From: Gammaproteobacteria bacterium
Lineage (GTDB): Bacteria > Pseudomonadota > Gammaproteobacteria > Pseudomonadales > Pseudomonadaceae
DNA length: 64,000 bases
Assembly: GCA_023475025.1 (NCBI GenBank)
Contig: JAMCWB010000030.1
Span: 1,853-65,852 of the forward strand
Reading direction: 5' to 3'
The notes beneath the pieces are model-generated. The model searched no databases and was not told the origin of the DNA. It saw only the letters and a list, made by a program, of their open reading frames with translations. The position numbers were made by a program, and so were the translations under genes. Below are positions 26,375 to 53,277 of this stretch, in pieces. Within the stretch, counting starts at the first letter, position 1; every line of letters begins with the position of its first letter.

Positions 26375-26380
26375 ATGCCA

Positions 26381-29168: not shown

Positions 29169-29252
29169 TAGTTACTCGGCACATGCGATAGTTGCCGAAA
29201 AATACAACCGGGGATCTTGATACTTTTACTTTCGAATTGACCAAAACGATGC

Positions 29253-30503: not shown

Positions 30504-30520
30504 AGCGAACATCGTGCCAA
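30504..30520 (-). promoter_or_regulatory. Sigma-54 (-24/-12) promoter P2
   Basis: The minus strand reads TTGGCACGATGTTCGCT, with correct GG-N10-GC spacing. It is about 60 nt upstream of the small-protein ATG and matches P1 at 16 of 17 positions. Confidence 0.65.
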
Positions 30521-34378: not shown

Positions 34379-34385
34379 GGGTGTT

Positions 34386-38846: not shown

Positions 38847-38863
38847 AGCGAAGATCGTGCCAA
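38847..38863 (-). promoter_or_regulatory. Sigma-54 (-24/-12) promoter P1
   Basis: The minus strand reads TTGGCACGATCTTCGCT, with GG-N10-GC spacing. It begins 3 nt after the activator's stop codon and ends 12 nt before the hsdR ATG. Confidence 0.65.
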
Positions 38864-40350: not shown

Positions 40351-40464
40351 CCATGCCCCCAAACAGCCATTCTTGTCTGTCCACTACACAAGCCAACAGA
40401 ACTGCTTAGTGCTCAGCTCACTACAACCTGAAAAGCTCAGCCATCACAACGCAGTTTATGCCAT

Positions 40465-40835: not shown

Positions 40836-40860
40836 ACATATGAAGCCCAAGGAGAACGTT

Positions 40861-41094
40861 ATGACTACTCAATACCTAACCACCGACGAGCTTGCAGCTC
40901 GCATCAAATATGACGCCAGAACAATTCGCGACCGACTCAAGGATAGCGTTTTGCTTGAGGGCGTTCACTACATCCGACCCTTTGGTGGACGCAAAATTCT
41001 TTATATCTGGGAAGCCATTGAGCGAGACATGGGCGGCACATCCAACAGCCCTCTTGCCATCCCCATGGCCAACGGAGGTGTCATGCATGGCTAG
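40861..41094 (+). CDS. AlpA/excisionase-family small DNA-binding protein
   Basis: ATG 40861 after AAGGAG. The sequence LTTDELAARIKYDARTIRDRLKD..GVHYIRPFGGRKILY is typical of Xis/AlpA HTH proteins. It overlaps the int start by 8 nt. Confidence 0.75.
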   Translation: MTTQYLTTDELAARIKYDARTIRDRLKDSVLLEGVHYIRPFGGRKILYIWEAIERDMGGTSNSPLAIPMANGGVMHG

Positions 41095-42292
41095 TATCCG
41101 TGTACGAGAACAGACAGGAAAACTGTTCTTCGACTTCCGTTACCGTAACAAACGATGCCGTGAGCAAACGGCCCTGGATGACACACCTACCAACCGGCGC
41201 AAGCTGGAAGGGATTTTGAAAAAGGTCGAGGCCGAAATCACTCTGGGGACGTTCGAGTATGCTCGGTATTTTCCGGGCAGCAAAAATGCCCAAAAGTTTG
41301 GCGAGGCCGCGACAGCTCAGGCGCAACTCAAGCACCACGCAACGCCACTTTTTAGTGACTTTGCCGATACCTGGTTTGCCGAAATGCAGGCTCAGTGGCG
41401 ACGCTCGCACATTGATACGGTGGCAGGCACTTTGCGCGCCTACTTGAAGCCAGAATTTGGTGAGAAAGAGGTCGGCTCCATCACCAAGGCAGAGATTTTA
41501 TCTTTCCGTTCCCAGCTCGCCAAAGTCAGAAACGGTAAAGACAAACCGCTGTCAGCAGAGAGAATCAACCACATCATGACGCCTTTGCGCATGATCCTTA
41601 ACGAAGCAGCCGACCGGTACGAGTTTACCTCACCCTATCAGGGCATCAAATCGCTAAAGGTACCGCGGACTGATGTAGAGCCGTTTACCGTCGACGAGGT
41701 CAAGCTGATCCTGCAAACGGTGAGGGCCGATTTTAAAAACTATTACACCGTGCGCTTTCTGACCGGAATGCGCACCGGTGAAATTGATGGGCTGCAGTGG
41801 CAATTTGTCGACTTTGAACGCCGACAAATTTTGGTGCGCCAGGCTCTGGTCAGAGACGAGCTGGTTTACACCAAAAATGATGGATCATTCCGCACCATTG
41901 ATATGTCCGGTCCAGTCTATGACGCACTGCAGGAGCAGCATAAAGCGACCGGTCAATTCGACTACGTGTTCTGCACGCGCAACGGCAAGCCTATCGCCCA
42001 CCGCAATATCACCCAACGGGTGTGGTACCCCTTGTTGCGGCACCTGGGACTACGTAAACGGCGGCCCTATCAAACCCGCCATACCGCAGCAACGCTTTGG
42101 CTGGCAGCAGGCGAATCGCCGGAATGGATTGCCCGCCAAATGGGCCATACCACCACCGAAATGCTGTTCCGCGTTTATTCCCGCTATGTGCCCAACCTCA
42201 CACGCCGTGACGGCTCTGCCATGGAACGTTTGCTGGTCAGTGAATTCAACCAAGCCAGCCATTCCGATGCTCAGGAGAAAGAACATGCTTAA
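41087..42292 (+). CDS. int: Tyrosine integrase with N-terminal arm-binding (DUF3596-type) domain
   Basis: ATG 41087 after GGAGG, within track ORF 40892..42292. The N-terminus reads IRVREQTGKLFFDFRYRNKRCRE. Catalytic motifs are GMRTGEI, TRHTAATLW and VYSRY. Confidence 0.88.
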   Translation: MASIRVREQTGKLFFDFRYRNKRCREQTALDDTPTNRRKLEGILKKVEAEITLGTFEYARYFPGSKNAQKFGEAATAQAQLKHHATPLFSDFADTWFAEMQAQWRRSHIDTVAGTLRAYLKPEFGEKEVGSITKAEILSFRSQLAKVRNGKDKPLSAERINHIMTPLRMILNEAADRYEFTSPYQGIKSLKVPRTDVEPFTVDEVKLILQTVRADFKNYYTVRFLTGMRTGEIDGLQWQFVDFERRQILVRQALVRDELVYTKNDGSFRTIDMSGPVYDALQEQHKATGQFDYVFCTRNGKPIAHRNITQRVWYPLLRHLGLRKRRPYQTRHTAATLWLAAGESPEWIARQMGHTTTEMLFRVYSRYVPNLTRRDGSAMERLLVSEFNQASHSDAQEKEHA

Positions 42293-42530
42293 GATATCCG
42301 CTCACACCTGCCGCCGCCTTGCTAGAGCCATCCAGGTTGCATTGCGAATCCCCGAGGGAGATGCGCTGGTCTTTTTGATTGGACGCGGCCACGAAGCATC
42401 CAATCTGGATGCGCTGGAGACCTGGGTGACTGAAACATTGCCACAACTGGAAGAAGAGTGTGGCAAGGCGGTGCTGCCCTATTTGCTTGATCGCCTGGAA
42501 AGCACTCTGGACCAGTGGGGGGCAGCCTGA
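42285..42530 (+). CDS. Small hypothetical protein (81 aa)
   Basis: ATG 42285 in the frame of track ORF 41778..42530. It overlaps the int stop by 8 nt and the next gene by 1 nt. Confidence 0.45.
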   Translation: MLKISAHTCRRLARAIQVALRIPEGDALVFLIGRGHEASNLDALETWVTETLPQLEEECGKAVLPYLLDRLESTLDQWGAA

Positions 42531-43468
42531 TGAACAGCTCACTGCCATCCACCTTTTCAAATAACGATGCAGATGCCTTTTGGTTGACTGGCTGCCTGGA
42601 AACCCAACAGGCCTATCAGGTATCGCCTCTGAAATCCTGTATTTTCCTCGTTTTGGAAAATCTTGCAGGGCGCCATGAGGTTCTAGCAGCCCTGGATAAC
42701 CATCCGGGGTCATGGCCAACCAATGGAGTAGTCGCCGTCTCAATGCACGTCACGGCCCATGGGGGCTTTTTGACCGTTGACGATCAGAAGCTATTAACAA
42801 CCCATGCTTTTCAGTCACTCAGCCATCTACCCGCCAGCAAAGTGGGCTCAGTCACGACCGTAATGGACGTTGAGCGGTGGATAGACAGCTGCCCATACCC
42901 AACACTGCAACGCTTCGCCTATCAGGTACTTGGAGAGCCCAATATTGGCTGTCGATTTTTTAGCTACCCAGCAAGCGCTAACCACCACCACTGCTATCCG
43001 GGTGGGTTGGCTGAGCACAGTCTGGAGGTGGCTCAGTCAGTCTATGCCGTAAGCAGCAGCTTCTCTGAGCATGAGCGCTGGCTAGCCGCGCTCGCTGGCC
43101 TGCTCCATGACCTCGGTAAGGTACGAAGCATGCAGCCAGATGGGCGACGAACAGAAACTGGATATTTGGTGAGTCACGAGCTGCTGGGATATGAGCTAGC
43201 TATTCCGGCCCTCAACACGCTGGAAAAAGAATGGCCAGACGGCGCCAATGGGCTTCGATACCTGTTTGAGTGGCTGATCAAGCCAAAGCAGCAACGACCA
43301 GTATTGCCCGTTGCCCTGGCCATCAAGCAGGCAGACATCATGAGTGCTGCCGCCAATAACCGGCAAAAAGTCTTCAGTGATAAGCCTGTCTGGCAGACCT
43401 TTGCCCGATGCGATGGACCTGGCCCTGAAAGTACCTTCTGGCTGCCAAGGCCGCCGCACGCTGACTAA
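42530..43468 (+). CDS. HD-domain protein of the TraI_2 / MOBH-relaxase-like type
   Basis: HHHCYPGGLAEHSLEV...LLHDLGKV is an HD signature as found in the N-terminal part of MOBH relaxases. At 312 aa it lacks a helicase part. Confidence 0.55.
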   Translation: MNSSLPSTFSNNDADAFWLTGCLETQQAYQVSPLKSCIFLVLENLAGRHEVLAALDNHPGSWPTNGVVAVSMHVTAHGGFLTVDDQKLLTTHAFQSLSHLPASKVGSVTTVMDVERWIDSCPYPTLQRFAYQVLGEPNIGCRFFSYPASANHHHCYPGGLAEHSLEVAQSVYAVSSSFSEHERWLAALAGLLHDLGKVRSMQPDGRRTETGYLVSHELLGYELAIPALNTLEKEWPDGANGLRYLFEWLIKPKQQRPVLPVALAIKQADIMSAAANNRQKVFSDKPVWQTFARCDGPGPESTFWLPRPPHAD

Positions 43469-43613
43469 GGGAGGTCAGTGCTGCCATGGTTGTACGTCAG
43501 CCGCAAGCTTGACTTGGGCGAAAGCCATGCCAGTATAAATACTGATTATCCATACAGCTTTATGGCGAAAGGTAAGCCTTTAGCCCGCTATCAGTTTCCT
43601 ATCGGAGCTTAAT

Positions 43614-44012
43614 ATGCCCACTCTCAATGAAATGACTAACCTGCTGTTCGGCGATGGAGAGCCAATGCAGGGCGCCACCTTCTCGCTGGAAGAGGCGATT
43701 GAACAAGCCAAGTCCTATGCCACGCACAAGCCCTTCAGGATTGTCCGTGACTGGATATGGGCTGATCTGGATGTGGGCGAGAAAATCGCCCTGGATCTGG
43801 AGTCACGAGGTATCAACCCGGTGATGGTCTATGCGCATGAGGTCATGTACGACAGCACTTCGCGCTTCGAACCCGGCAATTGGGTAAGGACCACACCTCT
43901 TATACGGTTTACTCCACCTGGCTTTTTTGAAACCCGAAACACGGTCTATGTCTTGATAGGTGAAGGCAAACGTAAAACAACATCGCTGGACGCCATTATG
44001 AGCATTCACTGA
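43614..44012 (+). CDS. Hypothetical protein
   Basis: 132-aa ORF with a plausible RBS context and no recognisable motif. Confidence 0.4.
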   Translation: MPTLNEMTNLLFGDGEPMQGATFSLEEAIEQAKSYATHKPFRIVRDWIWADLDVGEKIALDLESRGINPVMVYAHEVMYDSTSRFEPGNWVRTTPLIRFTPPGFFETRNTVYVLIGEGKRKTTSLDAIMSIH

Positions 44013-44145: not shown

Positions 44146-44457
44146 ATGGAAATTCGTGATGGATTGTCGGCATCCATTCAAGCAGATTTTGAAAAGTCGC
44201 TTGGTGAGGTGCCCCGTCTGCTGGAAAGCCTTGATGACCCATCTAGCAAAGATCTACTGGCAGACATTGCCGCCACAGAAGCTCTTGCACTTAGCCTGCT
44301 GGTGTTTGGCAGTACGGCAAAAGCAAAGCACTACCTGCAAAAATCCAACACTCGTCTTGCTGGCATGACCCCACTGCACGGCATCCAAACCGGCGCCAAT
44401 GCGCGAGATCGTGTCATCGCTGATCTGATCAGGCTGATAGAAGGCTATGTTTTCTGA
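44146..44457 (+). CDS. DUF2384 (MbcA/ParS/Xre antitoxin toxin-binding domain) protein
   Basis: 103 aa after AAGGAG. The C-terminal AKHYLQKSNTRLAGMTPLHGIQTGANARDRVIADLIRLIEG fits the DUF2384 pattern. Confidence 0.6.
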   Translation: MEIRDGLSASIQADFEKSLGEVPRLLESLDDPSSKDLLADIAATEALALSLLVFGSTAKAKHYLQKSNTRLAGMTPLHGIQTGANARDRVIADLIRLIEGYVF

Positions 44458-44914
44458 GCAGGCGCGGAGTATTACGGTCTGTATTCAAATAACTCACATA
44501 AAGAGCAGCATGCAGATGGTTACGCAAGAAAATGACCTGCCGGGCGAGAACGAGAGCCACATGATTGGCTTGCGTGCGGCCATTACAATCCTCAAGGGTT
44601 GGAAAGCCAGCCGAAGCCAGATTCAGAAAATATTGGGCATTTCCAGCTACGCTCTGGACCGAGTCACCGCCGGAAATGCTCCATCCAAGCTGGATGGCGA
44701 GCAGGCTGAGCGCATCAGCATGGTGCTGAACATCCACGCCGCCATGCGCACGCTTTTTGAAAATCCAGCAAACGTATACGGTTTTATGAGACGCCCCAAC
44801 GACAATGATTTTTTTAACGGCCGCGCACCGCTCGATGTTATTGCTGAGGGCCGCCTGCAGGACCTTGTCGAAACGCATCGGCGCATCGAAAGCCTTAGCA
44901 ATGGCACTTGGTGA
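44447..44914 (+). CDS. Xre-like HTH + DUF2384 antitoxin-like protein
   Basis: KILGISSYALDRV plus FMRRPNDNDFFNGRAPLDVIAEGRLQDLVETHRRIE. The start is ambiguous (44447 or 44510). Confidence 0.6.
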   Translation: MFSEQARSITVCIQITHIKSSMQMVTQENDLPGENESHMIGLRAAITILKGWKASRSQIQKILGISSYALDRVTAGNAPSKLDGEQAERISMVLNIHAAMRTLFENPANVYGFMRRPNDNDFFNGRAPLDVIAEGRLQDLVETHRRIESLSNGTW

Positions 44915-45247: not shown

Positions 45248-45556
45248 ATGAAAATCCGCGAGACAAAAAACGTTCTGGTCACTACCGATGTGCTCTGTGA
45301 TGTATGCGGCACATCCACCACAAAACCCGGCACCCCTGCGCAGTATGGCGTGCTGTCAGCCCACTGGGGCTATGGTTCGCAGCATGATGGTGAACGGTAT
45401 GAGGTGCACCTGTGTGAGGGCTGCTTTTTCAGCACCCTGACAGGACTGCGACGTCAGCGGATGGTTGAGCATTTGTTCGACGAAGTATCCGATCAGGCGA
45501 TAAAACCTGACGCACCGTTCGGTCTGGTTGAACGTGATAACTATTTCAAGGACTGA
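45248..45556 (+). CDS. Small Cys-pair (zinc-ribbon-like) protein
   Basis: ATG 45248 after AGGAGA, within track ORF 45086..45556. It carries CDVCG...CEGC. Confidence 0.45.
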   Translation: MKIRETKNVLVTTDVLCDVCGTSTTKPGTPAQYGVLSAHWGYGSQHDGERYEVHLCEGCFFSTLTGLRRQRMVEHLFDEVSDQAIKPDAPFGLVERDNYFKD

Positions 45557-45605: not shown

Positions 45606-46094
45606 TCAACAGCCGTGCAAAAGCCGCTCTCGCAGCCGTTGTACTGTCTGTTCGCAGGACAAACCCAACGCGGGATCAGCATGAATCAGTTGAGGCAGCT
45701 TCTCGTCGGGCCAGCCTCGGGCATCATCATCAATGGCCAGCCAGTCGCAGGGTGAGTTCATTCGAGCCAGATAGGCCTGAATCTGCTCGTAGCGTGTCTG
45801 TAGGTCCCAAAACGTTGCTGCTCCAGATTCGCCGATTTTCATTTTTGAGTGCCAGGTGGCGCCAACCACCAAAGCTCTTAAGCATTCCGGTAACGCATTG
45901 CAGGCACGCCTGAATCCGAGATGACGTGCCCAACTCGTTGACAGGACAATCCTCACATCAGCGCCCTCAATCGCTGACAGTAGCTGTGGTACCCACATGA
46001 AAAGCTCACCCGGTCCACGCAGCACCGGGCGCCCGCGCTTCAGGTAGACCTCGTCAGGGTGCAGCACCCCGTCATAGTCCAGGAACAACAGCAT
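45606..46094 (-). CDS. HAD-like phosphatase of the RNA-repair associated (HAD_SAK-like) type
   Basis: Start at ATG 46094 (AGGAGG 5 nt upstream) gives MLLFLDYDGVLHPDEV, placing the DxD nucleophile motif at the N-terminus. The C-terminal WLAIDDD is also present. Confidence 0.55.
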   Translation of the reverse strand: MLLFLDYDGVLHPDEVYLKRGRPVLRGPGELFMWVPQLLSAIEGADVRIVLSTSWARHLGFRRACNALPECLRALVVGATWHSKMKIGESGAATFWDLQTRYEQIQAYLARMNSPCDWLAIDDDARGWPDEKLPQLIHADPALGLSCEQTVQRLRERLLHGC

Positions 46095-46244
46095 GAGTCC
46101 TCCTGCCATAAATGCTTCGTCCGAGCTGTGAATGTCATGCACACCATTGCCACGCTCCGCTGATGGGCTTGTCTGAACGGAAAGCCCTTTCTCCGGCAAC
46201 CAGCATTGATTAGCCGCAGAGCCGTCGGAACCACTACCGTGAGC

Positions 46245-46889
46245 CTAGATACGACTTGCCAGATCCAGCACTATCGACGGGTTAATGGGCTGGTATTGCT
46301 CGTTACAGGTGCAGGCATTAATCAGGGTGAGCGGTCCGCGCCGATAGGTGCCGTACCCTTCATGAATATGCCCAAAGATATGAGCTTTGAGGGACAGCCT
46401 GTCAATGCGCTGCAACAGCTCAATACACCCAACATGCCTGAGCCCCAGCGCTAGCTCAACCTCATCTCCGATCCCCCTCGGCGGGCCGTGGGTGATCAGC
46501 ACATCCGTTTTGTCAGGGATGCGCGACCAGGCATCGTACAGCGGTGGACCCGGGTCCAGCATGAATGCCCAATTCATAAATGTGGGTGTCCAGGGCGAGC
46601 CCCAGAAACGAATGCCTTCAATTTCAACGCCACTGTCCTCAAGGTAAATCGCGTGACTGAGCGCCTCGCGTGCCTGCTCCGGGCTGTCCTGGAATGCCCA
46701 GTCATGGTTACCGGCGATCACGACCTTGTACCTGTGAGGCAGTGTACCCTGCCAGTCATTCAGCTCCTCAACATTGTCCAGCGTGCCCTGCCCCAGGCTA
46801 TGACCGGCGTGGATCAGCACATCGCCATCTGGAATGTCCTGGATGCTGCGATGCATGCTATGTGTGTCGGAGATACAAACGAGTTTCAT
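46245..46889 (-). CDS. Calcineurin-like metallophosphoesterase
   Basis: Motifs ISDTH, GDVLIHAG, GNHD, THGPP and GHIHEG. Confidence 0.85.
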   Translation of the reverse strand: MKLVCISDTHSMHRSIQDIPDGDVLIHAGHSLGQGTLDNVEELNDWQGTLPHRYKVVIAGNHDWAFQDSPEQAREALSHAIYLEDSGVEIEGIRFWGSPWTPTFMNWAFMLDPGPPLYDAWSRIPDKTDVLITHGPPRGIGDEVELALGLRHVGCIELLQRIDRLSLKAHIFGHIHEGYGTYRRGPLTLINACTCNEQYQPINPSIVLDLASRI

Positions 46890-47527
46890 CGGCTTGTCTG
46901 TGGTGGGCTGTGAGTTGCAGTATCGGTCGGCTGGCTGAGCAGTTCATCCAGTAGCGACCAGTCCAGAAATGGCAGTAAGCGTGCGATATTCCTGGCGTCA
47001 TCAACCCCGCGGTGGGGCTGGCCGTCAAATTCCAGCTCATGATGAGCCAGTGCATGGGCAAGGCTGGTTTTCTTGTGCTGCCTGGTGGTACGTCGCCAGA
47101 GCTTCTTCAAGTTCAGGTGCGGCAGGCTTAGCAGTTGTGAATCGGCACTGTCGAGGGCGCATTGTGCTGTCAGCTGGCTCAGATCGTAGTTGCCCCAGCT
47201 GCACCAGAGTGCATCCGCTGCGACGTCGTTCAGCCAAGCGTTCATCTGGACAACAGCATCTGCAAGCGGTGGTGCGTTATCAACCATGGCTTGCGTGATA
47301 TGCGTCAGTTCAATGCAGAACTCACTGAGCACGGGTTGGCGTTGGGGTCGCACCATGAAGGAGCGCGTATCCAGCACAGTGCCATGCTGGTTGCTCAGCG
47401 CGCAGCCAATCTCGATAATTTCCATCGTGTGAATGCTTTGCGCCGTACCCTCTGGCGTGCTGGCGTCCCAGCACGTGGCTTCAAGGTCAACCACGAGAAT
47501 TGGCGAATTATTTTCCTGCATTGGCAT
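46886..47527 (-). CDS. DEDDh 3'-5' exonuclease (ERI-1/KapD-like)
   Basis: Motifs LVVDLEATCW, EIIEIGC and HRGVDDARN. 4-nt overlap with the phosphoesterase gene. Confidence 0.8.
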   Translation of the reverse strand: MPMQENNSPILVVDLEATCWDASTPEGTAQSIHTMEIIEIGCALSNQHGTVLDTRSFMVRPQRQPVLSEFCIELTHITQAMVDNAPPLADAVVQMNAWLNDVAADALWCSWGNYDLSQLTAQCALDSADSQLLSLPHLNLKKLWRRTTRQHKKTSLAHALAHHELEFDGQPHRGVDDARNIARLLPFLDWSLLDELLSQPTDTATHSPPQTSR

Positions 47528-48011
47528 TAGCCTTGCCTTTAGTCAGATAGCCAATAAACATACATTCAAGAAGACCGCTTTGCCTAAAAATTGAGCCGTC
47601 AATGAGGCTTGGCGCAAGCCACCACAAGACCCGCAGCCTCACAGAACACCCCTATCATGTGATCCTGCAGTTGAAGGTCCAGTGTGGCAGCTTTCGGCCA
47701 GAAGCAGTCGCTCGTCAATAGCTTCTCTCCACCCATGACAACCATTCATTAGGGAACCTGTTGCTCTGCTGAAGCTTTTGTCACGTTTTTATATGGGCAG
47801 CGTCGTATAAGAAAGACTTCACCAGCCGAGTATGGCCTGGATCCAGAAAGCCACAAATGCGCAACATATTGTGATGGTGTGCCTCGCGATATCTACATAT
47901 TGATATTCTCGACAGGTGAAAGTAGTCTATGGTTACTGGCCACAGACTAAAGAGGAAGCGGAGCCGGCTCATATGCAGCGTGCGTTGATATGAGCAGGGT
48001 AGCGCCAAGAG

Positions 48012-49211
48012 GTGAACTTATGGCAGTACTGCTGGACGCACTCTATGACTAAATCTAAAACTGCCACTGGGCGCTTCGACACCGACGACGTGACGAAACG
48101 TGTCGTATGGACTCAGGCTGCAGGCCACTGTGAGCTGTGTGGCACCGACCTCATGTACGACTACCGGGCAGGTAAGCCCATGAACTGGGGAGAGGTTGCT
48201 CACATCCTGCCAGCGAGTCCAAAGGGCCCCCGGGGTCGGTCTGACCATGACGAAGCAAAGGCTGCGTCGCTTACCAACGACACAGCCAATCTCATGCTTC
48301 TCTGCCCTGGCTGCCATGACAAAATTGATCGGGATGCTGATGGATATCCAGAAAGCGATCTTAGCGGCCTGCACCAAGCGTACCTGGAGCGAGTCCGGCT
48401 AGCGGCAACCACTCCTGACGGTGGAAGAGCGATTCCAGTTATTGTCCAAAGTCAGCATTTCGCAACGAACAACGACATCCCCGTTCGTGATCTGTTGGTG
48501 GCAATGTCCTCTGAGGGACTGACGGCATTCGATCATCCCATCAAGATCACTTTTCCAGCCCCAAGCCATCGTGGCCGGGATGACCACTACTGGCAGAGCA
48601 TCAAGGACAGCATTCAGCACGAATTAGAGCAGCAGTTAAAACGCCGCGGAGGAGCATGTGGTGACGCTCCTGCGCTTGCCGTAGTGGGCGTGGCAGACAT
48701 CCCAGCGTTGATCATGCTGGGACAGTCCTTAGGTGATCGATCCAAGCGCCTGCTTTTCTCGTTCAACCGTGAGCACCAACTACGTTGGCCTGACCAGTCA
48801 GCCGAACCTCCCGAGTTTGTGTTCACCCCGCCCTCGGATGGAGAAGGCCCACTGGCTCTGGTATTGTCTATCTCCGCGCAAGTCCCAGCTCGCGATGTCG
48901 AAGAGGCACTACCTGGTGCGCGTATCGCTGGGCTGAGCATCCCAGTGCCCAGCTATGCGATGGTTCAGAACCGTCGCGTGATACACGCGTTTCGCGACGC
49001 TCTACAAAAGCACTTGAGCCGGCTTGAGGCCATGACTGCAGACACAGTCCATGTGTTTGCGGCGATTCCCGCTGCTTTGGCTATTGAGTTCGGGGCCTTG
49101 CTTACTACGCAACATCAACACGCTTACCTGATCTTCGATCGAGATAAAGACAACCAAAACAGGTTCACGCCAACACTACAGTTGGGCCACCAAGCCCAGG
49201 AGGTTCGTTGA
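48012..49211 (+). CDS. cap5: CBASS effector Cap5-like: HNH endonuclease fused to SAVED domain
   Basis: HNH motifs CELCG...EVAHILP...LLCPGCHDKID followed by about 270 aa of SAVED-like C-terminus. GTG start at 48012 (alternative ATG at 48045). 4-nt overlap with the CD-NTase gene. Confidence 0.75.
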   Translation: MNLWQYCWTHSMTKSKTATGRFDTDDVTKRVVWTQAAGHCELCGTDLMYDYRAGKPMNWGEVAHILPASPKGPRGRSDHDEAKAASLTNDTANLMLLCPGCHDKIDRDADGYPESDLSGLHQAYLERVRLAATTPDGGRAIPVIVQSQHFATNNDIPVRDLLVAMSSEGLTAFDHPIKITFPAPSHRGRDDHYWQSIKDSIQHELEQQLKRRGGACGDAPALAVVGVADIPALIMLGQSLGDRSKRLLFSFNREHQLRWPDQSAEPPEFVFTPPSDGEGPLALVLSISAQVPARDVEEALPGARIAGLSIPVPSYAMVQNRRVIHAFRDALQKHLSRLEAMTADTVHVFAAIPAALAIEFGALLTTQHQHAYLIFDRDKDNQNRFTPTLQLGHQAQEVR

Positions 49212-50464
49212 TGTCCATGAGCAATGAACAGACCAAGCGCGGAAGCTGGGAGCACTTTCTGCTCCGCGCCGCGAAGGAGATCTCACTGTCCGAATCACAG
49301 TACGAGAAGATCAACGACCGATACTCCCAGCTTGAGAAGATTCTCAACGCTTCCGACAATCCACTTCTGGCGGAGGCGCACATTTTTGTCCAAGGCTCCA
49401 TGCGCCTGAAGACAACGATCAAACCCGTTTCTGGCGCCCCAGAGGATCTGGACACCATCGACGCGGACGCCATTATTTGGCTCCCTCATGCACAGGGTGC
49501 TAGAGCTAGAGAGGTTCTGGATGCAATTGAGGAACGCTTCAAGGCTGGCAGCCGTGTCCAGGAGGAAATCAAGCAACTACGCCGAGGCATCCGGATCATC
49601 TATGCTGACGAAAACCCTGGATTCCACATTGATGTCACGCCCGCGCGAGCCATCAATGGGAATTCTCAAGGCAATGGCGAAGGCAAGCTGGAAGTACCGG
49701 ATCGAGAGACTGGGTGGAAGGCGAGTAGCCCGATCCCCTACTCAAAGTGGTTGCAGGTCGCGTCAACGCAACCCATCTCCTTGGCGGAACATATGGCTGT
49801 CGCGAAAAGCCAGCGCGCTTTTGATGCCGCCACTCAGGATCCGCTGCCGCAGTATCAGGACTATCTCGATCAAGACCCACTTCGGGCAACGATCAAGCTG
49901 CTGAAGCGTCATCGGGATGAGTGGGCCATCCGCACCAAAAATACGGATCATCGTCCGATTTCGGCAGTCATCACCACTCTCGCTACCCACGCCTACGTTG
50001 ATGTGGCGAAAGAGTCCCAGTCGACGCCGCTAAGGCCGCTAGATGCCATCCTCGAAATCGTCCGAAGGATGCCGGATCACATTAAGTACCGGGGCAACGA
50101 ATGCCAGGTTTGCAACCCGGCAGATAGCGGCGAAAACTTCGCTGAAAAATGGAATAGGCCGCTCGATGGACATCGCTACCGCCGGGCATTCCAGGAATGG
50201 CACGAGAATGCCAGCGTATCGGTCTCGCTGGGACTTGAAAGCTACGAGTCCGCAGAAGCGTTTGCCAAGGCCGTGAACGAAAACTTCGGCATTGGTCCTA
50301 CCCTCATTTCGGCAGTTAATAGCGAAATTCCGCCCAACTGGACGATGCCTGGCCGGCCTGATGGCACCACCCGAAACGCCACATTAATGGGCACTATGTT
50401 TGGAGGCGTGAGCGGGACTGCGAGCTCTCAGGAGGATGTGAGGCCAGTTGGGCGTCTTGGTTGA
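49208..50464 (+). CDS. CD-NTase (cGAS/DncV-like nucleotidyltransferase)
   Basis: Motifs QGSMRLKT, DIDADAI and HIDVTPA fit the GS...DxD...D pattern. The protein ends in ...VGRLG with a terminal Gly. Confidence 0.75.
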   Translation: MMSMSNEQTKRGSWEHFLLRAAKEISLSESQYEKINDRYSQLEKILNASDNPLLAEAHIFVQGSMRLKTTIKPVSGAPEDLDTIDADAIIWLPHAQGARAREVLDAIEERFKAGSRVQEEIKQLRRGIRIIYADENPGFHIDVTPARAINGNSQGNGEGKLEVPDRETGWKASSPIPYSKWLQVASTQPISLAEHMAVAKSQRAFDAATQDPLPQYQDYLDQDPLRATIKLLKRHRDEWAIRTKNTDHRPISAVITTLATHAYVDVAKESQSTPLRPLDAILEIVRRMPDHIKYRGNECQVCNPADSGENFAEKWNRPLDGHRYRRAFQEWHENASVSVSLGLESYESAEAFAKAVNENFGIGPTLISAVNSEIPPNWTMPGRPDGTTRNATLMGTMFGGVSGTASSQEDVRPVGRLG

Positions 50465-52232
50465 TCAGACGGATACGTCTCTGCAGCGTGGTATAGCCGC
50501 GCTGCGAGGTGCTCTTGGCGAAGATGCCGCACAGGCACTGCTTCAGCCTGCGGTCGCTCGGACCGGTGAAGCTGCGAGCTACTACTTTCCTCTGCCAGTT
50601 GACTATACGGGCACGGAGCGGCGGCTACGCATCAGCTTTCCCAAGAATTTCCCCCGCAGTGGATTGAGGCTTACAGTCGAGCCCTCGCCATGGCTTGTAT
50701 GGCCTCACGCGATGGAAGTCGGGCTCTGCCTGCATGGTTTCCAGGAGCGCCCAGTGATGGGCACCCCTGAATACGTGGTGTCGGATAGCCTGGCGCGGTT
50801 AGGCAAGATCGTAAATTTGTCCCGGATGGGTTCATGTGCGGCTGACCGAGATGCCGAATTTCGTCGCGAAATCACATCGTACTGGTCTAGGCAGCAAGGG
50901 CTATCTCTACAGAACCTTATCCTTTTGGATCGCCCTCAAGTTGCCTCGAAGCTGTATGCCCTTAGCGATCCTCGACAGACGTTACCATCTGGCCAAGAAA
51001 CAGTCTGGCTCGCCACGGATTTGGCATCCCTGAAAAGACACTGCCGGCGGACGATTGGCCGATCTCCAAGGATGCGAGCACCGGAGGCCCCAGGATTCTA
51101 CGCAAAGCTTCGGAGCTATCCGGACCTGCGCCTTCCCGCTCCTGAGCTACTGCTCACATGGCTCTTGCCGCATCTCGCTCCTAATGACAGAACGCAGCTG
51201 GTGGCTTGGTTCAATGAGCGTAGCTCACTGCCCAACCGCTGGATCGCTTTGGAGCTCCCTGGGGATGCCAGCGCCCCAATCTACTGCCTGAACGTTCGCG
51301 CATACGGCCCACAGCTGGATCGAGGATCGAGGTTTTACCTGCGATCAGCGCGGCGCCGGCCTGCAGTTGCAGTCAATCATCCCCCAGTTCTGATCCGAGC
51401 AACGGCGCTGGATGTGCTGGATCGAACAGAGATTTTATCCCGTGACCTCAGTGGCGTGGCGCAGAAACTAGAAGGGGCTCGCGTCGTTTGCGTTGGGGTA
51501 GGTTCGTTGGGTAGCACCGTTGCCCTACAGTTGGCGCGTTCGGGTGTTGGCCATCTGACACTCATTGACCCAGACCACTTGGTCTCGGCAAATCTTGGCA
51601 GACATGTGCTCGGTGCCGATGATCTCGGTCTCCCCAAGGCAGAAGCGCTTCAGGAGAAAATTCGCAAAGACCTGCCCACTACGGAAGTCGCGGCGTTTGC
51701 CACCTTCGCCGAAGTGGTGATGTACAAGAATCCCGAGGTTTTTGATAAAGCGGATCTGGTAGTGGTTACTACCGCTGACTGGCAGTCGGAGGTGGCGTTG
51801 TGGGGGGCCAAGTCGAATGGCACCTCTTGGGGTTTACTCCAGGCCTGGAGTGAGCCTCATACACAGGTGGGGCATGTGCTCCTTGCACCACCTGGTGCAT
51901 TTGATGCTCGGGGCCTATTCACAGACAACGGTGATTTTAAGCACAAGTTCACCGAGTGGCCGGAAGGTGGGGTCGTCGCCCTTCCCGCCTGCGGGGAGAG
52001 TTTCATCCCAGGAGGTTCTCTTGGGATGGCGAACATTGCTTCGATGGTTTCTCAAGCTGCATTACGAGTGTTGAGTGGCATCATCGACAGCCCGAGCTGG
52101 GTCAGCAGCATTAATAGACCTGATGACGTGGTTAGGCTGGGAGGTAACTACCTCGGGCCTGAGCTACCTGCCGGAATGCAGCAGGCCCAGCTGGAGCGCG
52201 ATTGGCCGAAAGCATCGGAGAAAAGTAAATGA
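50448..52232 (+). CDS. cap2: Cap2 (E2-like + E1/ThiF-like fusion)
   Basis: Rossmann motif CVGVGSLGSTVALQLARSGVGHLTLIDPD..NLGRH and an N-terminal E2-like region. TTG start after GGAGGA. Confidence 0.8.
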   Translation: MGVLVDQTDTSLQRGIAALRGALGEDAAQALLQPAVARTGEAASYYFPLPVDYTGTERRLRISFPKNFPRSGLRLTVEPSPWLVWPHAMEVGLCLHGFQERPVMGTPEYVVSDSLARLGKIVNLSRMGSCAADRDAEFRREITSYWSRQQGLSLQNLILLDRPQVASKLYALSDPRQTLPSGQETVWLATDLASLKRHCRRTIGRSPRMRAPEAPGFYAKLRSYPDLRLPAPELLLTWLLPHLAPNDRTQLVAWFNERSSLPNRWIALELPGDASAPIYCLNVRAYGPQLDRGSRFYLRSARRRPAVAVNHPPVLIRATALDVLDRTEILSRDLSGVAQKLEGARVVCVGVGSLGSTVALQLARSGVGHLTLIDPDHLVSANLGRHVLGADDLGLPKAEALQEKIRKDLPTTEVAAFATFAEVVMYKNPEVFDKADLVVVTTADWQSEVALWGAKSNGTSWGLLQAWSEPHTQVGHVLLAPPGAFDARGLFTDNGDFKHKFTEWPEGGVVALPACGESFIPGGSLGMANIASMVSQAALRVLSGIIDSPSWVSSINRPDDVVRLGGNYLGPELPAGMQQAQLERDWPKASEKSK

Positions 52233-52720
52233 CGGCGATCGCGTGGCAATGGACCTGGCCCGGGCTAAACACTCCTCTGTTGGTATCGCAGGAGGTTGCG
52301 AGCCTGCTGGAGAGCTACAGGCAGAAGCACTTTGATGTAGAGCGTGGGGGGCAGCTATTCGTCGACCCTTCAAGCGTGGCCGGACTGGTACTGGCATTGG
52401 CTACTCCCCCTCATAACGATGATCGGGCTGGTAGGACCTGGCTGGATTTGAATGCTCGTCGCTGTCGAAAGGAAATTGAGCAGGCTAATGCCGCAGGTCT
52501 CCGCCTGGTAGGCTACTGGCATACCCACCCGCAAAGCATTCCTATGATCTCCCCCACGGATATCGGGAGCTTTTCCAGGTTCGCCGCGCACTACACCCAA
52601 GAGCTGCCGCACCCGCTGGCAATCATCGTGGGCAACTCCAGCAGCCACGAAGGCATAAAGGCTTGGTCTTTCAGGGATGGGCGCTATGTTGAAGCTGTTT
52701 GGGGCAGTTGGCCAGGTTAG
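52229..52720 (+). CDS. cap3: Cap3 (JAB/JAMM isopeptidase)
   Basis: ERGGQLF and the JAMM motif GYWHTHPQSIPMISPTD. 4-nt overlap with cap2. Confidence 0.8.
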   Translation: MTAIAWQWTWPGLNTPLLVSQEVASLLESYRQKHFDVERGGQLFVDPSSVAGLVLALATPPHNDDRAGRTWLDLNARRCRKEIEQANAAGLRLVGYWHTHPQSIPMISPTDIGSFSRFAAHYTQELPHPLAIIVGNSSSHEGIKAWSFRDGRYVEAVWGSWPG

Positions 52721-53277
52721 TGGTTACATGCCTCCTCCAGCATGAGAGCGAAAAGCTCCCCCTGGAATCGTGCGTCGTCCAACGCGTTATGGTTGGGTGC
52801 GCTTTGGGGGTTGAAACGAGCGGTCATTTGGGAGGATTTAGTTTCCCTCCAGCGGCATCCGGTAACCCCCATGTAATACGCCTTCATGTCGAGCGCGGTG
52901 AACCCAAAGGGGTTCGTCCCAGAATACTTGTGGAAGTAGTAGTTGACGAACGACCAGTCAAACGGGGCATTCAGCCCCACGAAAACGATTTTCTGATCTG
53001 CCGAACATACCTGGTTCAACCATTGCTCCAGCTCGAGCATCGCCACCTGGGGGGGAAGCCCTTCTCTTTCAAGCTTACAGAGATCGAGACCAGTTACGGC
53101 GACTGCCTCCGGATCATGTTTTACGCCGTCCGGTTGGAGCTCAAGATAGATCGATTGAGTAGGCTCTGAAACGAGGCACGCCCCAATAGAGAGCAGACTA
53201 TAAATGCCCGGTACGGGGCCGGAAGTCTCGACATCGACAGAAACATAAAGCTCATCGTTCATTATCGTGCTCCTCAT
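52717..53277 (-). CDS. DnaQ-like DEDD 3'-5' exonuclease
   Basis: Motifs VSVDVETSG, GLNAPFDWSF and HNALDDAR. It is convergent with cap3, and their 3' ends overlap by 4 nt. Confidence 0.75.
   Translation of the reverse strand: MRSTIMNDELYVSVDVETSGPVPGIYSLLSIGACLVSEPTQSIYLELQPDGVKHDPEAVAVTGLDLCKLEREGLPPQVAMLELEQWLNQVCSADQKIVFVGLNAPFDWSFVNYYFHKYSGTNPFGFTALDMKAYYMGVTGCRWRETKSSQMTARFNPQSAPNHNALDDARFQGELFALMLEEACNH

What the first reader, a model, noticed from the sequence alone, without database searches (positions are those of the whole stretch)
45606..47527. Exonuclease / metallophosphoesterase / HAD-phosphatase trio divergent from the CBASS operon
The minus-strand set comprises an ERI-1/KapD-like DEDDh exonuclease and a calcineurin-like phosphoesterase with all five metal motifs. 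These two overlap by 4 nt. A small HAD enzyme follows 150 nt later. Its DxD nucleophile is at residues 6-8 once the RBS-supported start (46094) is used. That form is associated in the literature with RNA-repair 'Swiss army knife' proteins. All three chemistries act on nucleic-acid or nucleotide phosphoester ends. The set shares a 484-bp divergent intergenic region with CBASS and lies in the same island as a CARF sensor of RNA ends. It could trim or heal RNA termini, or degrade cyclic oligonucleotide signals as an immune off-switch. I know of no named system with this composition.
Basis: inference. Interest (0 to 1): 0.65.

Follow-up and report, generated by a model that had tools for sequence, protein, structure and literature searches.

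The report
Mobile-island exonuclease and phosphoesterase cassette
Three small genes, for a nuclease that trims 3' ends and two phosphate-removing enzymes, form a conserved core cassette of a family of mobile genomic islands that carry different anti-phage systems; they sit next to CBASS here because of how the island is laid out, not because they serve CBASS, and their substrate is untested.

Summary
They are an ERI1/KapD-like DEDDh exonuclease (46886-47527), an MPPED2-like metallophosphodiesterase (46245-46889, 4-nt overlap; PADLOC candidate PDC-S10) and a 162-aa stand-alone HAD_SAK_2 phosphatase (45606-46094).

One correction: this copy of the phosphodiesterase has His where all 18 aligned homologues have the motif-II Asp. 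The allele is genuine; contigs from four metagenome studies carry it.

The trio is co-conserved. It recurs as a tight EXO-HAD-MPE operon in at least six other Pseudomonas/Halopseudomonas-type loci, and in the window's own order in one metagenome contig.

The exonuclease is the constant part. Elsewhere it pairs with the phosphodiesterase alone (23 of 34 Marinobacter-type loci), with HAD phosphatases on nine plasmids, or is fused to Tpt1 or to an antitoxin domain.

The cassette lies in the conserved backbone of a P4-type-integrase island. The adjacent cargo differs between relatives: CBASS here, Mokosh, Gabija or MksBEF elsewhere. The CBASS link is therefore positional.

The most likely role is processing of phosphate-blocked nucleic-acid 3' ends. 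This is inferred, not shown. Interest is moderate.

The parts
46886..47527 (-). EXO: 213-aa ERI1/3'hExo/KapD-like DEDDh 3'-5' exonuclease. It is the one constant member of the cassette across mobile elements.
   Evidence: Pfam RNase_T 1.6e-20. Best PDB match is human ERI1, 5e-18. E16, D115, H172 and D177 are invariant, and D14 is conserved in at least 90% of the 17 aligned homologues, the exception being one N-terminally truncated sequence.
46886..46889 (-). ATGA overlap of the EXO stop and the MPE start (translational coupling).
   Evidence: Sequence read. The same 4-nt overlap occurs in L081 and L276.
46245..46889 (-). MPE: 214-aa MPPED1/2 (239FB)-like class III metallophosphodiesterase, matching PADLOC candidate PDC-S10.
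   Evidence: PDC-S10 7.7e-92. MPPED2 structures 3rl3/3rl4/3rl5 at profile E 1e-65 to 4e-68. More than 7,800 homologues found.
46800..46802 (-). MPE codon 30, CAT (His), at the motif II position (GD to GH). This Asp bridges the two metals in the calcineurin-like fold (my own knowledge).
   Evidence: Alignment A1 has Asp in all 18 homologues. The nearest relatives, L094, P0001 and P0002, have Asp. The codon was read. Contigs of runs from four studies cover the site with no differences.
46095..46244 (-). 150-nt spacer between MPE and HAD. No promoter-like, terminator-like or Rfam feature was found in it.
46099..46104 (-). AGGAGG ribosome-binding site, 4 nt upstream of the HAD ATG.
   Evidence: Sequence read.
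45606..46094 (-). HAD: 162-aa stand-alone capless HAD_SAK_2 phosphatase. An optional third member of the cassette.
   Evidence: PF18143 1.3e-25. D6, D8, S52-T53-S54 and D122-D123 are invariant in 19 sequences. AF2 model pLDDT 83.6, with weak fold matches to capless HADs: MDP-1, KDO8P phosphatase, SCP/FCP1 and T4 Pnkp.
45248..45556 (+). 102-aa CxxC...CxxC protein (inside the 156-aa ORF), convergent on HAD. A recurrent backbone neighbour with no family match.
   Evidence: Homologues lie next to the cassette or to HAD in L081-L088, L090, L092 and L094. No Pfam hit.
44146..44914 (+). Two overlapping Xre/DUF2384 (Xre_MbcA_ParS_C) antitoxin-like genes, 44146-44457 and 44447-44914. Recurrent neighbours of EXO.
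   Evidence: Pfam. Relatives lie adjacent to the cassette in L081, L092, L093, L094, L300, L301 and L304. P0346 is an EXO-DUF2384 fusion. Xre-like genes lie within 5 kb in 6 of 23 loci with EXO against 0 of 57 without, Fisher p 3e-4, not corrected for phylogeny.
40840..44012 (+). Island backbone upstream of the cassette: an 84-aa ORF immediately upstream of the integrase (excisionase-like by position only, no family match; 40840-41094), P4-type integrase (41087-42292), an 81-aa ORF (42285-42530), an HD/TraI_2-like protein (42515-43468) and DUF6957 (43614-44012).
   Evidence: Pfam. The same order occurs in L092, L301, L302 and L304, and in L300 without DUF6957. Nucleotide identity to L092 is 73-77%.
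48012..53277 (.). Neighbouring cargo, not part of the cassette: type II CBASS (HNH-SAVED 48012-49211, CD-NTase 49208-50464, E1/E2 50448-52232, JAB 52229-52720, all on the plus strand) and a separate CBASS-type DEDDh exonuclease (52717-53277, minus strand).
   Evidence: PADLOC E-values from 1e-87 to 4e-294. The CBASS-type exonuclease shows no detectable similarity to EXO (BLASTP E 0.055).

Best explanation
The three genes form a conserved accessory cassette in the backbone of a family of P4-type-integrase genomic islands found in Pseudomonas, Halopseudomonas and Marinobacter-like bacteria. Simpler versions occur on plasmids.

The fixed component is the ERI1/KapD-family 3'-5' exonuclease. It is joined by one or two interchangeable phosphoesterases: here an MPPED2-type metallophosphodiesterase and a capless HAD_SAK_2 phosphatase.

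Proposed mechanism (inferred). The phosphoesterases remove 2',3'-cyclic-phosphate or 3'-phosphate groups that block a nucleic-acid 3' end, most probably RNA. Alternatively, or in addition, they dephosphorylate the released nucleotides. The exonuclease, which needs a 3'-OH, then trims or degrades the strand.

The cassette sits at the inner edge of a slot into which different defence systems have been inserted. Its position next to CBASS is therefore positional, not functional. In this window the phosphodiesterase carries a substitution of the motif-II Asp (D30H), so that step may be weakened or lost.
For: Shown:
1. The trio recurs as a tight operon. The order EXO-HAD-MPE, with overlapping or abutting ORFs, occurs in L092, L093, L301, L302, L303 and L304, plus 5 similar places not displayed. 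The order EXO-MPE-HAD occurs in the window and in L094.
2. EXO is the hub of the cassette.
   - EXO lies within about 2 kb of MPE, in most cases directly upstream, in 23 of 34 genome loci whose MPE is at least 64% identical, and in 0 of 45 loci of the more distant clade.
   - It lies next to MPE on 2 Marinobacter plasmids.
   - All nine beta-/gammaproteobacterial plasmids with EXO at 41-44% identity have a HAD-IA hydrolase within about 1.9 kb upstream, adjacent or overlapping in most; three also carry HAD_SAK_2.
   - HAD(-HAD)-EXO operons occur in L112, L125 and L126.
   - EXO is fused to the RNA 2'-phosphotransferase Tpt1/KptA in L275.
   - EXO stands alone at the island end in L300.
3. The backbone is conserved while the cargo varies: CBASS (window), Mokosh MkoA (L094), Gabija (L092) and MksBEF+DUF7281 (L093, L304).
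4. All three genes are under purifying selection.
5. The catalytic residues of EXO and HAD are intact.

From established knowledge:
- DEDDh exonucleases need a 3'-OH (my own knowledge).
- KapD is a 3'-exoribonuclease (PMC11736430).
- A metallophosphoesterase (Clostridium thermocellum Pnkp, PMC2190708) and a HAD domain (T4 Pnkp, my own knowledge) both serve as 3' end-healing enzymes. This parallels the interchangeable partners seen here.
Against: - No enzymology or phenotype exists for any member.
- No ligase or kinase accompanies the cassette, so it is not a complete repair system.
- The HAD-IA partners on plasmids have cap domains, which are typical of small-molecule phosphatases. That fits nucleotide dephosphorylation better than end healing.
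- MPPED-family enzymes are known as cAMP/cGMP and bis-pNPP diesterases (PMC10547211), not as end-healing enzymes.
- HAD and MPE each occur mostly without the other two. Only 5 of 80 HAD-anchored metagenome loci hold EXO, although many of those contigs are short. The MPE family gave 472 matches on viral contigs, and none of the 80 loci examined has EXO or HAD beside it.
- The choice between RNA and DNA as substrate is not resolved.
Confidence: 0.45

Rival explanations
1. The cassette quenches nucleotide signals. The MPPED2-like diesterase opens cyclic mono- or oligonucleotide alarm signals (CBASS, Pycsar or type III CRISPR products). The exonuclease and HAD then degrade the linear products. The result is either an off-switch for the island's own systems or a counter-defence that helps the island establish in a new host.
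For: - MPPED-family enzymes hydrolyse cAMP and cGMP (PMC10547211).
- The MPE family is abundant in phage genomes: 472 IMG/VR matches and 94 GenBank phage records, as counter-defence enzymes often are.
- A different metallophosphatase, SMPDL3A, degrades cGAMP, and SMPDL3A-like bacterial proteins act in defence (PMC13092281).
- The only copy found beside a CBASS carries D30H. That could reflect incompatibility between an active diesterase and CBASS, but it is a single observation.
Against: - No CD-NTase or SAVED homologue lies beside the cassette in about 270 related loci.
- The cargo in the closest relatives (Mokosh, Gabija, MksBEF) is not known to use nucleotide signals (my own knowledge).
- The conserved hub is the exonuclease, which cannot attack a closed ring, and EXO is rare on viral contigs (21 weak matches).
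- An off-switch role would be lost in this window if D30H inactivates the enzyme.
Confidence: 0.15
2. The cassette is itself a defence or toxin-antitoxin-like module. The exonuclease, helped by the phosphoesterases, is an effector that destroys RNA or DNA 3' ends on infection. It is held in check or regulated by the neighbouring Xre/DUF2384 antitoxin-like proteins.
For: - MPE matches PADLOC candidate PDC-S10 at 7.7e-92. PDC families were chosen because they are embedded in RM, BREX or DISARM loci.
- A non-homologous two-gene MPE+HAD system, DS-9, protects E. coli from phage.
- Xre/DUF2384 genes flank the cassette in seven of the related islands examined (L081, L092, L093, L094, L300, L301, L304). 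One EXO homologue, P0346, is fused to the DUF2384 toxin-binding domain.
- On plasmids the EXO operon abuts RelB/YafQ.
Against: - PDC-S10 is untested.
- DS-9 proteins share no detectable similarity with these.
- The Xre genes are convergent or divergent to the cassette, not co-directional partners as in classical type II pairs.
- EXO stands alone in L300, and the cassette shows erosion without loss of the island: HAD deleted in L081, and D30H here.
- The cassette lies in the conserved backbone, not in the variable cargo slot.
Confidence: 0.2
3. The cassette processes DNA ends for the island's own life cycle. It would trim or clean DNA ends during excision, replication or mobilisation, working with the adjacent integrase and the HD/TraI_2-like protein.
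For: - The cassette occupies a fixed place in the conserved backbone, directly after integrase, the 81-aa ORF, the HD/TraI_2-like protein and DUF6957.
- The plasmid versions sit beside the replication and partition genes.
- The ERI1 family also cuts single-stranded DNA (my own knowledge).
Against: - The similarity of the HD protein to MobH/TraI_2 relaxases is weak and partial.
- Marinobacter EXO-MPE pairs occur in many different contexts without this backbone.
- The closest characterised relatives of EXO (ERI1, KapD) are RNases (PMC11736430).
Confidence: 0.1
4. There is no functional link. The three are independent cargo genes that happen to travel together.
For: Each family is found far more often without the other two.
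Against: - Start and stop codons overlap repeatedly.
- The genes stay together in two different gene orders.
- EXO has paired independently with phosphoesterases from three unrelated families on different replicons.
Confidence: 0.05

Closest known systems
ERI1/3'hExo (eukaryotes) and KapD (Bacillus) DEDDh 3'-5' exoribonucleases
   Same: Same fold and the same DEDDh catalytic residues. Best solved match is ERI1 at 5e-18, covering residues 10-185. The top NCBIfam hit is KapD.
   Different: - No SAP domain.
- The KapD equivalog cutoff is not reached (58.6 bits against 169).
- Encoded on mobile elements and translationally coupled to phosphoesterases.
MPPED1/MPPED2 (239FB) class III metallophosphodiesterases
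   Same: Strong full-length homology (profile E 3.9e-68 to PDB 3rl4). Motifs I, III, IV and V are conserved.
   Different: - A bacterial, mobile-element-borne protein of 214 aa that lacks the N-terminal extension and an internal segment of about 25 residues (chain 127-151) of the 296-aa mammalian chains.
- This copy has His instead of the motif II Asp.
- Coupled to an exonuclease.
PADLOC phage-defence candidate PDC-S10
   Same: MPE matches the PDC-S10 model over its whole length at 7.7e-92.
   Different: PDC-S10 is a single-gene, untested candidate derived by 'guilt by embedding'. Here the gene is one part of a two- or three-gene operon whose constant member is the exonuclease.
DS-9 (DefensePredictor): a validated two-gene metallophosphatase + HAD anti-phage system of E. 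coli
   Same: The same pair of enzyme superfamilies in one operon. The substrate is unknown there too.
   Different: - DS-9A is a 549-aa ACP5-like metallophosphatase with an N-terminal domain. DS-9B is a 278-aa capped HAD-IA.
- No detectable sequence similarity to the window proteins.
- DS-9 has no exonuclease.
RNA 3' end-healing enzymes (the HAD domain of T4 Pnkp; the metallophosphoesterase domain of Clostridium thermocellum Pnkp) and the 'Swiss army knife' RNA-repair proteins that gave HAD_SAK_2 its name
   Same: - A HAD and a metallophosphoesterase both have precedent as removers of 2',3'-cyclic or 3'-phosphate from RNA ends (PMC2190708; the T4 case is my own knowledge).
- The HAD belongs to Pfam HAD_SAK_2.
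   Different: - No kinase or ligase is present.
- The HAD is a stand-alone protein, not a domain of a multidomain repair enzyme.
- The partner is a degradative exonuclease, which suggests trimming or clearance rather than resealing.
The CBASS-associated DEDDh exonuclease (PADLOC model PDLC00753), present in this window at 52717-53277
   Same: Same superfamily, and it also lies beside the CBASS operon.
   Different: It is a different family (BLASTP E 0.055 against EXO). It is the exonuclease that actually matches a CBASS-specific model, at 1.3e-88. The cassette's EXO does not.

Membership tests
ERI1/3'hExo-KapD DEDDh exonucleases | DEDDh catalytic pentad in three Exo motifs | tested here: met
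   D14, E16, D115, H172 and D177 are present. E16, D115, H172 and D177 are invariant and D14 is at least 90% conserved in 17 homologues.
ERI1/3'hExo-KapD DEDDh exonucleases | Closest sequence relatives are ERI1-type enzymes | tested here: met
   PDB ERI1, ERI2 and ERI3 at 5e-18 to 7e-15. The next match, PolC exonuclease, is at only 3e-3.
KapD (NCBIfam NF005838 equivalog) | Score above the curated cutoff (169 bits) | tested here: not met
   58.6 bits. KapD-like, not a KapD orthologue.
ERI1/3'hExo-KapD DEDDh exonucleases | 3'-5' exoribonuclease activity | not testable with these tools
   Needs enzyme assays.
MPPED1/2-type class III metallophosphodiesterases | Full-length homology to MPPED2 | tested here: met
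   Profile E 3.9e-68, in two stretches covering profile positions 2-68 and 71-210.
MPPED1/2-type class III metallophosphodiesterases | All five metal-binding motifs (DxH, GD, GNH[D/E], H, GHxH) | tested here: not met
   Motif II is G29-H30 in the window copy. Asp is present in all 18 aligned homologues. The other motifs are present: D8-x-H10, G60-N61-H62-D63, H134 and G173-H174-x-H176.
PADLOC PDC-S10 | Match to the PDC-S10 HMM | tested here: met
   7.7e-92, residues 1-211 against model positions 10-217 of 223.
PADLOC PDC-S10 | Anti-phage activity | not testable with these tools
   The PDC families are described as untested candidates.
HAD_SAK_2 (PF18143) | Pfam score above the gathering threshold, plus the HAD motifs I-IV | tested here: met
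   90.8 bits against 27.5. D6-x-D8, S52-T53-S54 and D122-D123 are invariant.
'Swiss army knife' RNA-repair proteins | Multidomain protein combining the HAD with other repair domains (kinase, ligase and so on) | tested here: not met
   A stand-alone 162-aa protein. Homologues are mostly 160-200 aa, up to about 250 aa, and all but one of the 120 listed carry only PF18143. The defining paper could not be read.
CBASS accessory (Cap) genes | Conserved association with CD-NTase operons | tested here: not met
   No CD-NTase or SAVED hit beside EXO, MPE or HAD in 268 related loci. The relatives' cargo is Mokosh, Gabija or MksBEF. Caveat: tblastn with this window's CBASS proteins would miss very distant CD-NTases.
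DS-9 (metallophosphatase + HAD defence system) | Homology to DS-9A and DS-9B | tested here: not met
   BLASTP E 36 for the HADs. hhalign probability 1.6% for the phosphatases, tested against the first 399 residues of DS-9A, which was all that was available.
Complete RNA repair systems (RtcAB, Pnkp/Hen1, Pnkp/Rnl) | An RNA ligase, and usually a 5' kinase, in the operon | tested here: not met
   No such domain appears in the ORFs from 40 to 54 kb or in the related islands.
Type II toxin-antitoxin pairs with an Xre/DUF2384 antitoxin (RES-Xre, ParST, MbcTA) | A RES-, ParT- or MbcT-type toxin encoded next to the DUF2384 antitoxin | tested here: not met
   The Xre genes at 44146-44914 are followed by a 102-aa CxxC protein with no family match. 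No RES-type domain is seen in the related loci.
RtcR (CARF-sigma54 activator), for the gene at 38866-40362 | NCBIfam equivalog cutoff, and a CARF N-terminal domain | tested here: inconclusive
   318.5 bits against a cutoff of 650, with the alignment starting at residue 69. Pfam finds only the sigma54 AAA+, lid and HTH_8 domains.

The most novel reading that the evidence does not exclude
The cassette is an RNA 3'-end 'clean-up' module carried by the mobile element. It removes 2',3'-cyclic-phosphate-ended RNA fragments, or related nucleotide alarm signals, made by RNase-type toxins and abortive-infection systems. That would reset sensors such as the island's RtcR-like regulator and let an island loaded with suicidal defence systems establish and be tolerated in a new host. 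It would amount to a general damper on immune signalling, encoded in the island backbone rather than by each defence system.
Probability: 0.15. Interest if true: 0.75.

Novelty: new variant of a known kind. Interest (0 to 1): 0.45.

Why it matters
Defence islands are usually read as lists of independent immune systems. Here a small enzyme cassette sits in the conserved backbone of the island, next to a slot where CBASS, Mokosh, Gabija or MksBEF are swapped in and out.

If the cassette processes damaged RNA ends or nucleotide signals, it would be a shared housekeeping or damping function that the island provides for whatever cargo it carries. It could equally be a counter-defence that helps the island move between hosts.

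The work also gives an operon context, with the exonuclease as the real hub, to the untested PADLOC candidate PDC-S10. It gives a testable biochemical hypothesis to bacterial and phage relatives of the poorly understood animal MPPED1/2 enzymes.

If the cassette turns out to be ordinary nucleotide salvage, the practical lesson still holds: lying next to CBASS is not evidence of a CBASS function.

Tried and rejected
1. **Sigma54 promoter in front of the cassette.** A scan for TGGCAC-N5-TTGC gave 90 matches with up to 2 mismatches, against 102 expected by chance. No site lies upstream of EXO on the minus strand. One 1-mismatch site at 47522-47536 faces CBASS on the plus strand and is not above chance.
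2. **Sigma70-like promoters and terminators, 45-48.2 kb.** No promoter-like site, and only one weak terminator-like site, outside the cassette.
3. **Rfam scan, 44.9-48.1 kb.** Only a chance-level snoRNA match, E 0.61.
4. **Island ends.** No repeat of the 3' end of tRNA-Arg and no convincing direct repeats between 16 and 54.5 kb, so the att sites were not located.
5. **Homology to DS-9.** None.
6. **The cassette in phages.** The MPE family is common on viral contigs, but without EXO or HAD beside it. EXO and HAD are rare there.
7. **HAD function from structure.** The AF2 model is confident, but Foldseek matches are weak (best E 9e-3, TM 0.55). They say only 'capless HAD'. The sequence search of the PDB found nothing.
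8. **Literature.** The Burroughs and Aravind paper that defines the HAD_SAK domains is not held in the library. The PdeM and mycobacteriophage gp48 papers were opened in outline only; their abstracts showed nothing bearing on this cassette and homology was not tested.
9. **EXO as a duplicate of the CBASS-type exonuclease at 52717-53277.** Rejected: no detectable similarity.


Full report
**The observation**

The region holds three minus-strand ORFs at the stated coordinates.
- EXO (46886-47527, 213 aa) matches Pfam RNase_T at 1.6e-20. Its best solved relatives are human ERI1, ERI2 and ERI3, at 5e-18 to 7e-15. D14, E16, D115, H172 and D177 are all present; E16, D115, H172 and D177 are invariant and D14 is conserved in at least 90% of an alignment of 17 homologues.
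- MPE (46245-46889, 214 aa) overlaps the EXO stop codon by ATGA.
- HAD is best read from the ATG at 46094. AGGAGG lies 4 nt upstream, and homologues are mostly 160-175 aa. That gives a 162-aa protein with D6-x-D8. The serine/threonine and DD motifs are invariant across 19 sequences.
- The MPE-HAD spacer is 150 nt. The gap from EXO to the GTG start of the HNH-SAVED gene is 484 nt.
- The neighbour is a complete type II CBASS, with PADLOC E-values from 1e-87 to 4e-294.

First, MPE does not have all five metal motifs. Codon 30 is CAT (His) at 46800-46802, minus strand. All 18 aligned homologues have the motif II Asp, including copies that are 88-91% identical. Contigs from runs of four separate metagenome studies cover the site without a difference, so the allele is real.

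Second, the 'CARF sensor' at 38866-40362 is only RtcR-like. It scores 318 bits against the NCBIfam cutoff of 650, and Pfam finds no CARF domain.

**What the proteins are**

MPE is a close bacterial relative of animal MPPED1/2 (profile E 3.9e-68 to PDB 3rl4). Members of that family hydrolyse cAMP, cGMP and artificial diesters (PMC10547211). It also matches the PADLOC candidate PDC-S10 over its full length at 7.7e-92. PDC families are untested candidates, chosen because they are embedded in RM, BREX or DISARM loci.

The MPE family is very large: more than 7,800 hits. It is common in phages: 472 IMG/VR matches, many on contigs of 100-400 kb, and 94 GenBank phage records.

HAD belongs to Pfam HAD_SAK_2. 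It has no solved relative detectable by sequence. A confident AF2 model (pLDDT 83.6) resembles capless HADs only weakly: MDP-1, KDO8P phosphatase, SCP/FCP1 and T4 Pnkp.

*Anchored on MPE (80 genome loci).* EXO, whole or as a remnant, lies within about 2 kb of MPE, in most cases directly upstream, in 23 of the 34 informative loci whose MPE is at least 64% identical. It is absent from all 45 loci of the more distant clade. HAD is in none of the 80. In Marinobacter the pair is usually followed by a 79-aa gene and a Pol-beta-type nucleotidyltransferase.

*Anchored on HAD (80 metagenome loci).* Most loci lack both partners, though many contigs are short. The exceptions:
- L094 has the window's exact arrangement, at 93% nucleotide identity.
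- L098 holds EXO.
- L112, L125 and L126 are overlapping HAD(-HAD)-EXO operons.

*Looking up individual homologues.* The full trio appears as a tight EXO-HAD-MPE operon in:
- L092 (a MAG);
- L093 (Pseudomonas saliphila);
- L301 (Pseudomonas sp. NyZ704);
- L302 and L303 (metagenomes, with five more similar places not shown);
- L304 (a P. profundi MAG).

*Signs of erosion.* Halopseudomonas yangmingensis (L081) has EXO-MPE, and the last 57 nt of HAD remain as the scar of a deletion. In L300, EXO stands alone at the island end.

*Plasmids.*
- All nine beta-/gammaproteobacterial plasmids with EXO at 41-44% identity carry a HAD-IA hydrolase within about 1.9 kb upstream, adjacent or overlapping in most. 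Three of them also carry HAD_SAK_2.
- Two of three Marinobacter plasmids carry EXO-MPE.
- In a Photobacterium megaplasmid, EXO is fused to the RNA 2'-phosphotransferase Tpt1/KptA.

*Selection.* All three genes are under purifying selection (dN/dS 0.05-0.27).

*Conclusion.* The genes are functionally linked. The exonuclease is the constant hub and the phosphoesterases are interchangeable partners.

**Context**

The cassette lies in the conserved backbone of a P4-type-integrase island. The order is: HTH_26, a small ORF just upstream of the integrase (excisionase-like by position only, no family match), the integrase, an 81-aa ORF, an HD/TraI_2-like protein, DUF6957, one or two small genes that are Xre-like in several relatives, the cassette, further Xre/DUF2384 genes in some islands, and then cargo. 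The same order occurs in L092, L301, L302 and L304, and in reduced form in L300. L092 is 73-77% identical to the window at the nucleotide level.

The cargo next to the cassette differs between relatives:
- type II CBASS here;
- Mokosh MkoA in L094 (PADLOC E = 0);
- Gabija GajA/GajB in L092;
- MksBEF + DUF7281 in L093 and L304.

The other arm of the island also varies: type I RM with the sigma54 activator here, BREX with GmrSD in L301.

No CD-NTase or SAVED homologue lies next to EXO, MPE or HAD in 268 related loci. The CBASS in this window has its own DEDDh exonuclease, of a different family, at 52717-53277 (PADLOC 1.3e-88; no similarity to EXO). The position next to CBASS therefore reflects island layout, not function.

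**Mechanism: what is shown and what is inferred**

Shown:
- the family assignments;
- intact catalytic residues in EXO and HAD, and an altered motif II in MPE;
- translational coupling;
- recurrent pairing of EXO with phosphoesterases of three unrelated families, and with Tpt1;
- the backbone position and the variable cargo.

Inferred: DEDDh exonucleases need a 3'-OH, and ERI1 and KapD are 3' exoribonucleases (PMC11736430). A metallophosphoesterase (Clostridium thermocellum Pnkp, PMC2190708) and a HAD domain (T4 Pnkp, my own knowledge) both have precedent as removers of 2',3'-cyclic or 3'-phosphate from RNA ends. The simplest unifying reading is therefore that the phosphoesterases unblock 3' ends, or dephosphorylate the released nucleotides, and EXO trims. 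I give this about 0.45.

It is weakened by four points:
- there is no ligase or kinase;
- the plasmid HAD-IA partners are capped, which points to small-molecule substrates;
- the known diesterase preference of MPPED enzymes is for cyclic nucleotides;
- no experiment exists for any member.

**Rivals**

*Signal quenching (0.15).* MPE opens cyclic nucleotides and EXO and HAD finish the job.
- For: MPPED chemistry, the abundance of the MPE family in phages, and the fact that the one copy beside a CBASS carries D30H.
- Against: the varied, non-signalling cargo in relatives, and the exonuclease being the hub.

*A defence or toxin-antitoxin-like module (0.2).*
- For: PDC-S10, and the validated but non-homologous MPE+HAD system DS-9.
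- For: Xre/DUF2384 genes are regular neighbours, within 5 kb in 6 of 23 loci with EXO against 0 of 57 without, p 3e-4, uncorrected for phylogeny.
- For: an EXO-DUF2384 fusion exists (P0346), and the plasmid operons abut RelB/YafQ.
- Against: the backbone position, the convergent gene orientation, and the erosion of the cassette.

*Island DNA-end processing (0.1)* and *no functional link (0.05)* complete the list.

**Comparison with what is known, and novelty**

Each protein is a member of a known enzyme family, and MPE is already listed as an untested defence candidate. What I could not find described is the operon itself: an ERI1-like exonuclease with swappable phosphoesterase partners, in the backbone of defence-carrying islands and on plasmids. 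Full-text searches for PDC-S10 and for combinations of these families gave nothing relevant. I rate it a new variant of a known kind. Interest is moderate, about 0.45. It is a clear and testable comparative-genomic pattern, but made of ordinary chemistries and with no phenotype yet.

Noticed in passing
window 17289-30149 (minus strand), 31617-38835 and 38866-40362: The left arm of the island looks like a CoCoNuT-type (McrBC-derived) supersystem. It has a DUF2357/McrC-like gene, an AAA_5 McrB-like gene, a 523-aa protein with a C-terminal RNKSSH (RxxxxH, HEPN-type) motif, an Upf1-like helicase, a TerY-P triad (kinase, PP2C, VWA) and a CAP12/Pycsar-type TIR protein. These are followed by Mrr, a type I RM with a YhcG nuclease, and the RtcR-like sigma54 activator. 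The CoCoNuT paper reports this same association with TerY-P triads, type I RM and RtcR-like CARF regulators (PMC11090510). The 'CARF sensor' therefore probably belongs to that block, not to the trio.
   Followed up: partly
window 30505-30519 (-) and 38848-38862 (-): Two nearly identical sigma54-type -24/-12 boxes (TGGCACGATGTTCGC and TGGCACGATCTTCGC). One lies about 356 nt upstream of the TIR gene that heads the long minus-strand operon. The other lies just upstream of hsdR and just downstream of the RtcR-like activator gene. Matches to the consensus across the whole window are not above chance, but the similarity of these two boxes to each other and their positions are suggestive.
   Followed up: no
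window 46800-46802 (-): The MPE D30H allele (motif II GD to GH) is carried by contigs from runs of four metagenome studies, two of them labelled hot spring and mine tailings. It is a fixed variant of this lineage, not a sequencing error.
   Followed up: yes
window 46901-47508, in runs X1, X4, X7 and X9: The same metagenomes hold a second variant. It shares the middle of EXO but diverges at 46901 into sequence that would encode IVLDLTSRLF, which resembles the C-terminal tail of MPE (SIVLDLASRI). This looks like a sister element in which most of MPE has been deleted. Only 30 nt of the divergent flank could be seen.
   Followed up: partly
L081 8679-8708 against window 45606-46212: Halopseudomonas yangmingensis keeps EXO-MPE and the convergent 102-aa gene. 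Of HAD, only the last 57 nt remain, the scar of a deletion of about 550 nt. Taken with EXO standing alone in L300 and D30H here, this suggests the phosphoesterase partners are repeatedly lost.
   Followed up: yes
P0346; L275 4668-6110: EXO homologues occur fused to the Xre_MbcA_ParS_C (DUF2384) toxin-binding domain (275 aa, Pfam 7e-12) and to a Tpt1/KptA RNA 2'-phosphotransferase (480 aa). Two other homologues, P0318 and P0347, carry C-terminal tails. Scanned on its own, the tail of P0318 has a weak, sub-threshold resemblance to the RelB C-terminus (E 0.033).
   Followed up: partly
window 45248-45556 (+) and 43614-44012 (+): A 102-aa CxxC...CxxC protein with no family match and a DUF6957 protein travel with HAD and/or the cassette in many islands (L084-L092, L094, L098, L301-L304). 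They are further conserved backbone genes of unknown function.
   Followed up: partly
L002-L028 (Marinobacter loci): Around EXO-MPE, Marinobacter islands repeatedly carry two further metallophosphoesterases (one of them lambda-phosphatase-like), a Pol-beta nucleotidyltransferase, HipA-like genes and Xre-like genes. Several genomes hold two or three copies of the MPE family on different contigs.
   Followed up: partly
L187 6001-8157 (IMG/VR contig): One viral contig carries an MPPED2-like MPE (47% identity) about 1 kb from a homologue of the CBASS-type exonuclease (37% identity to the window gene at 52717-53277). It is the only one of the 95 viral loci examined (80 MPE-anchored, 15 HAD-anchored) with such a pairing.
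   Followed up: no
window 47522-47536 (+): A 1-mismatch sigma54-type box (TGGCATTAGCCTTGC) overlaps the EXO start codon and points toward the CBASS operon, about 476 nt upstream of its first gene. It is within chance expectation.
   Followed up: no
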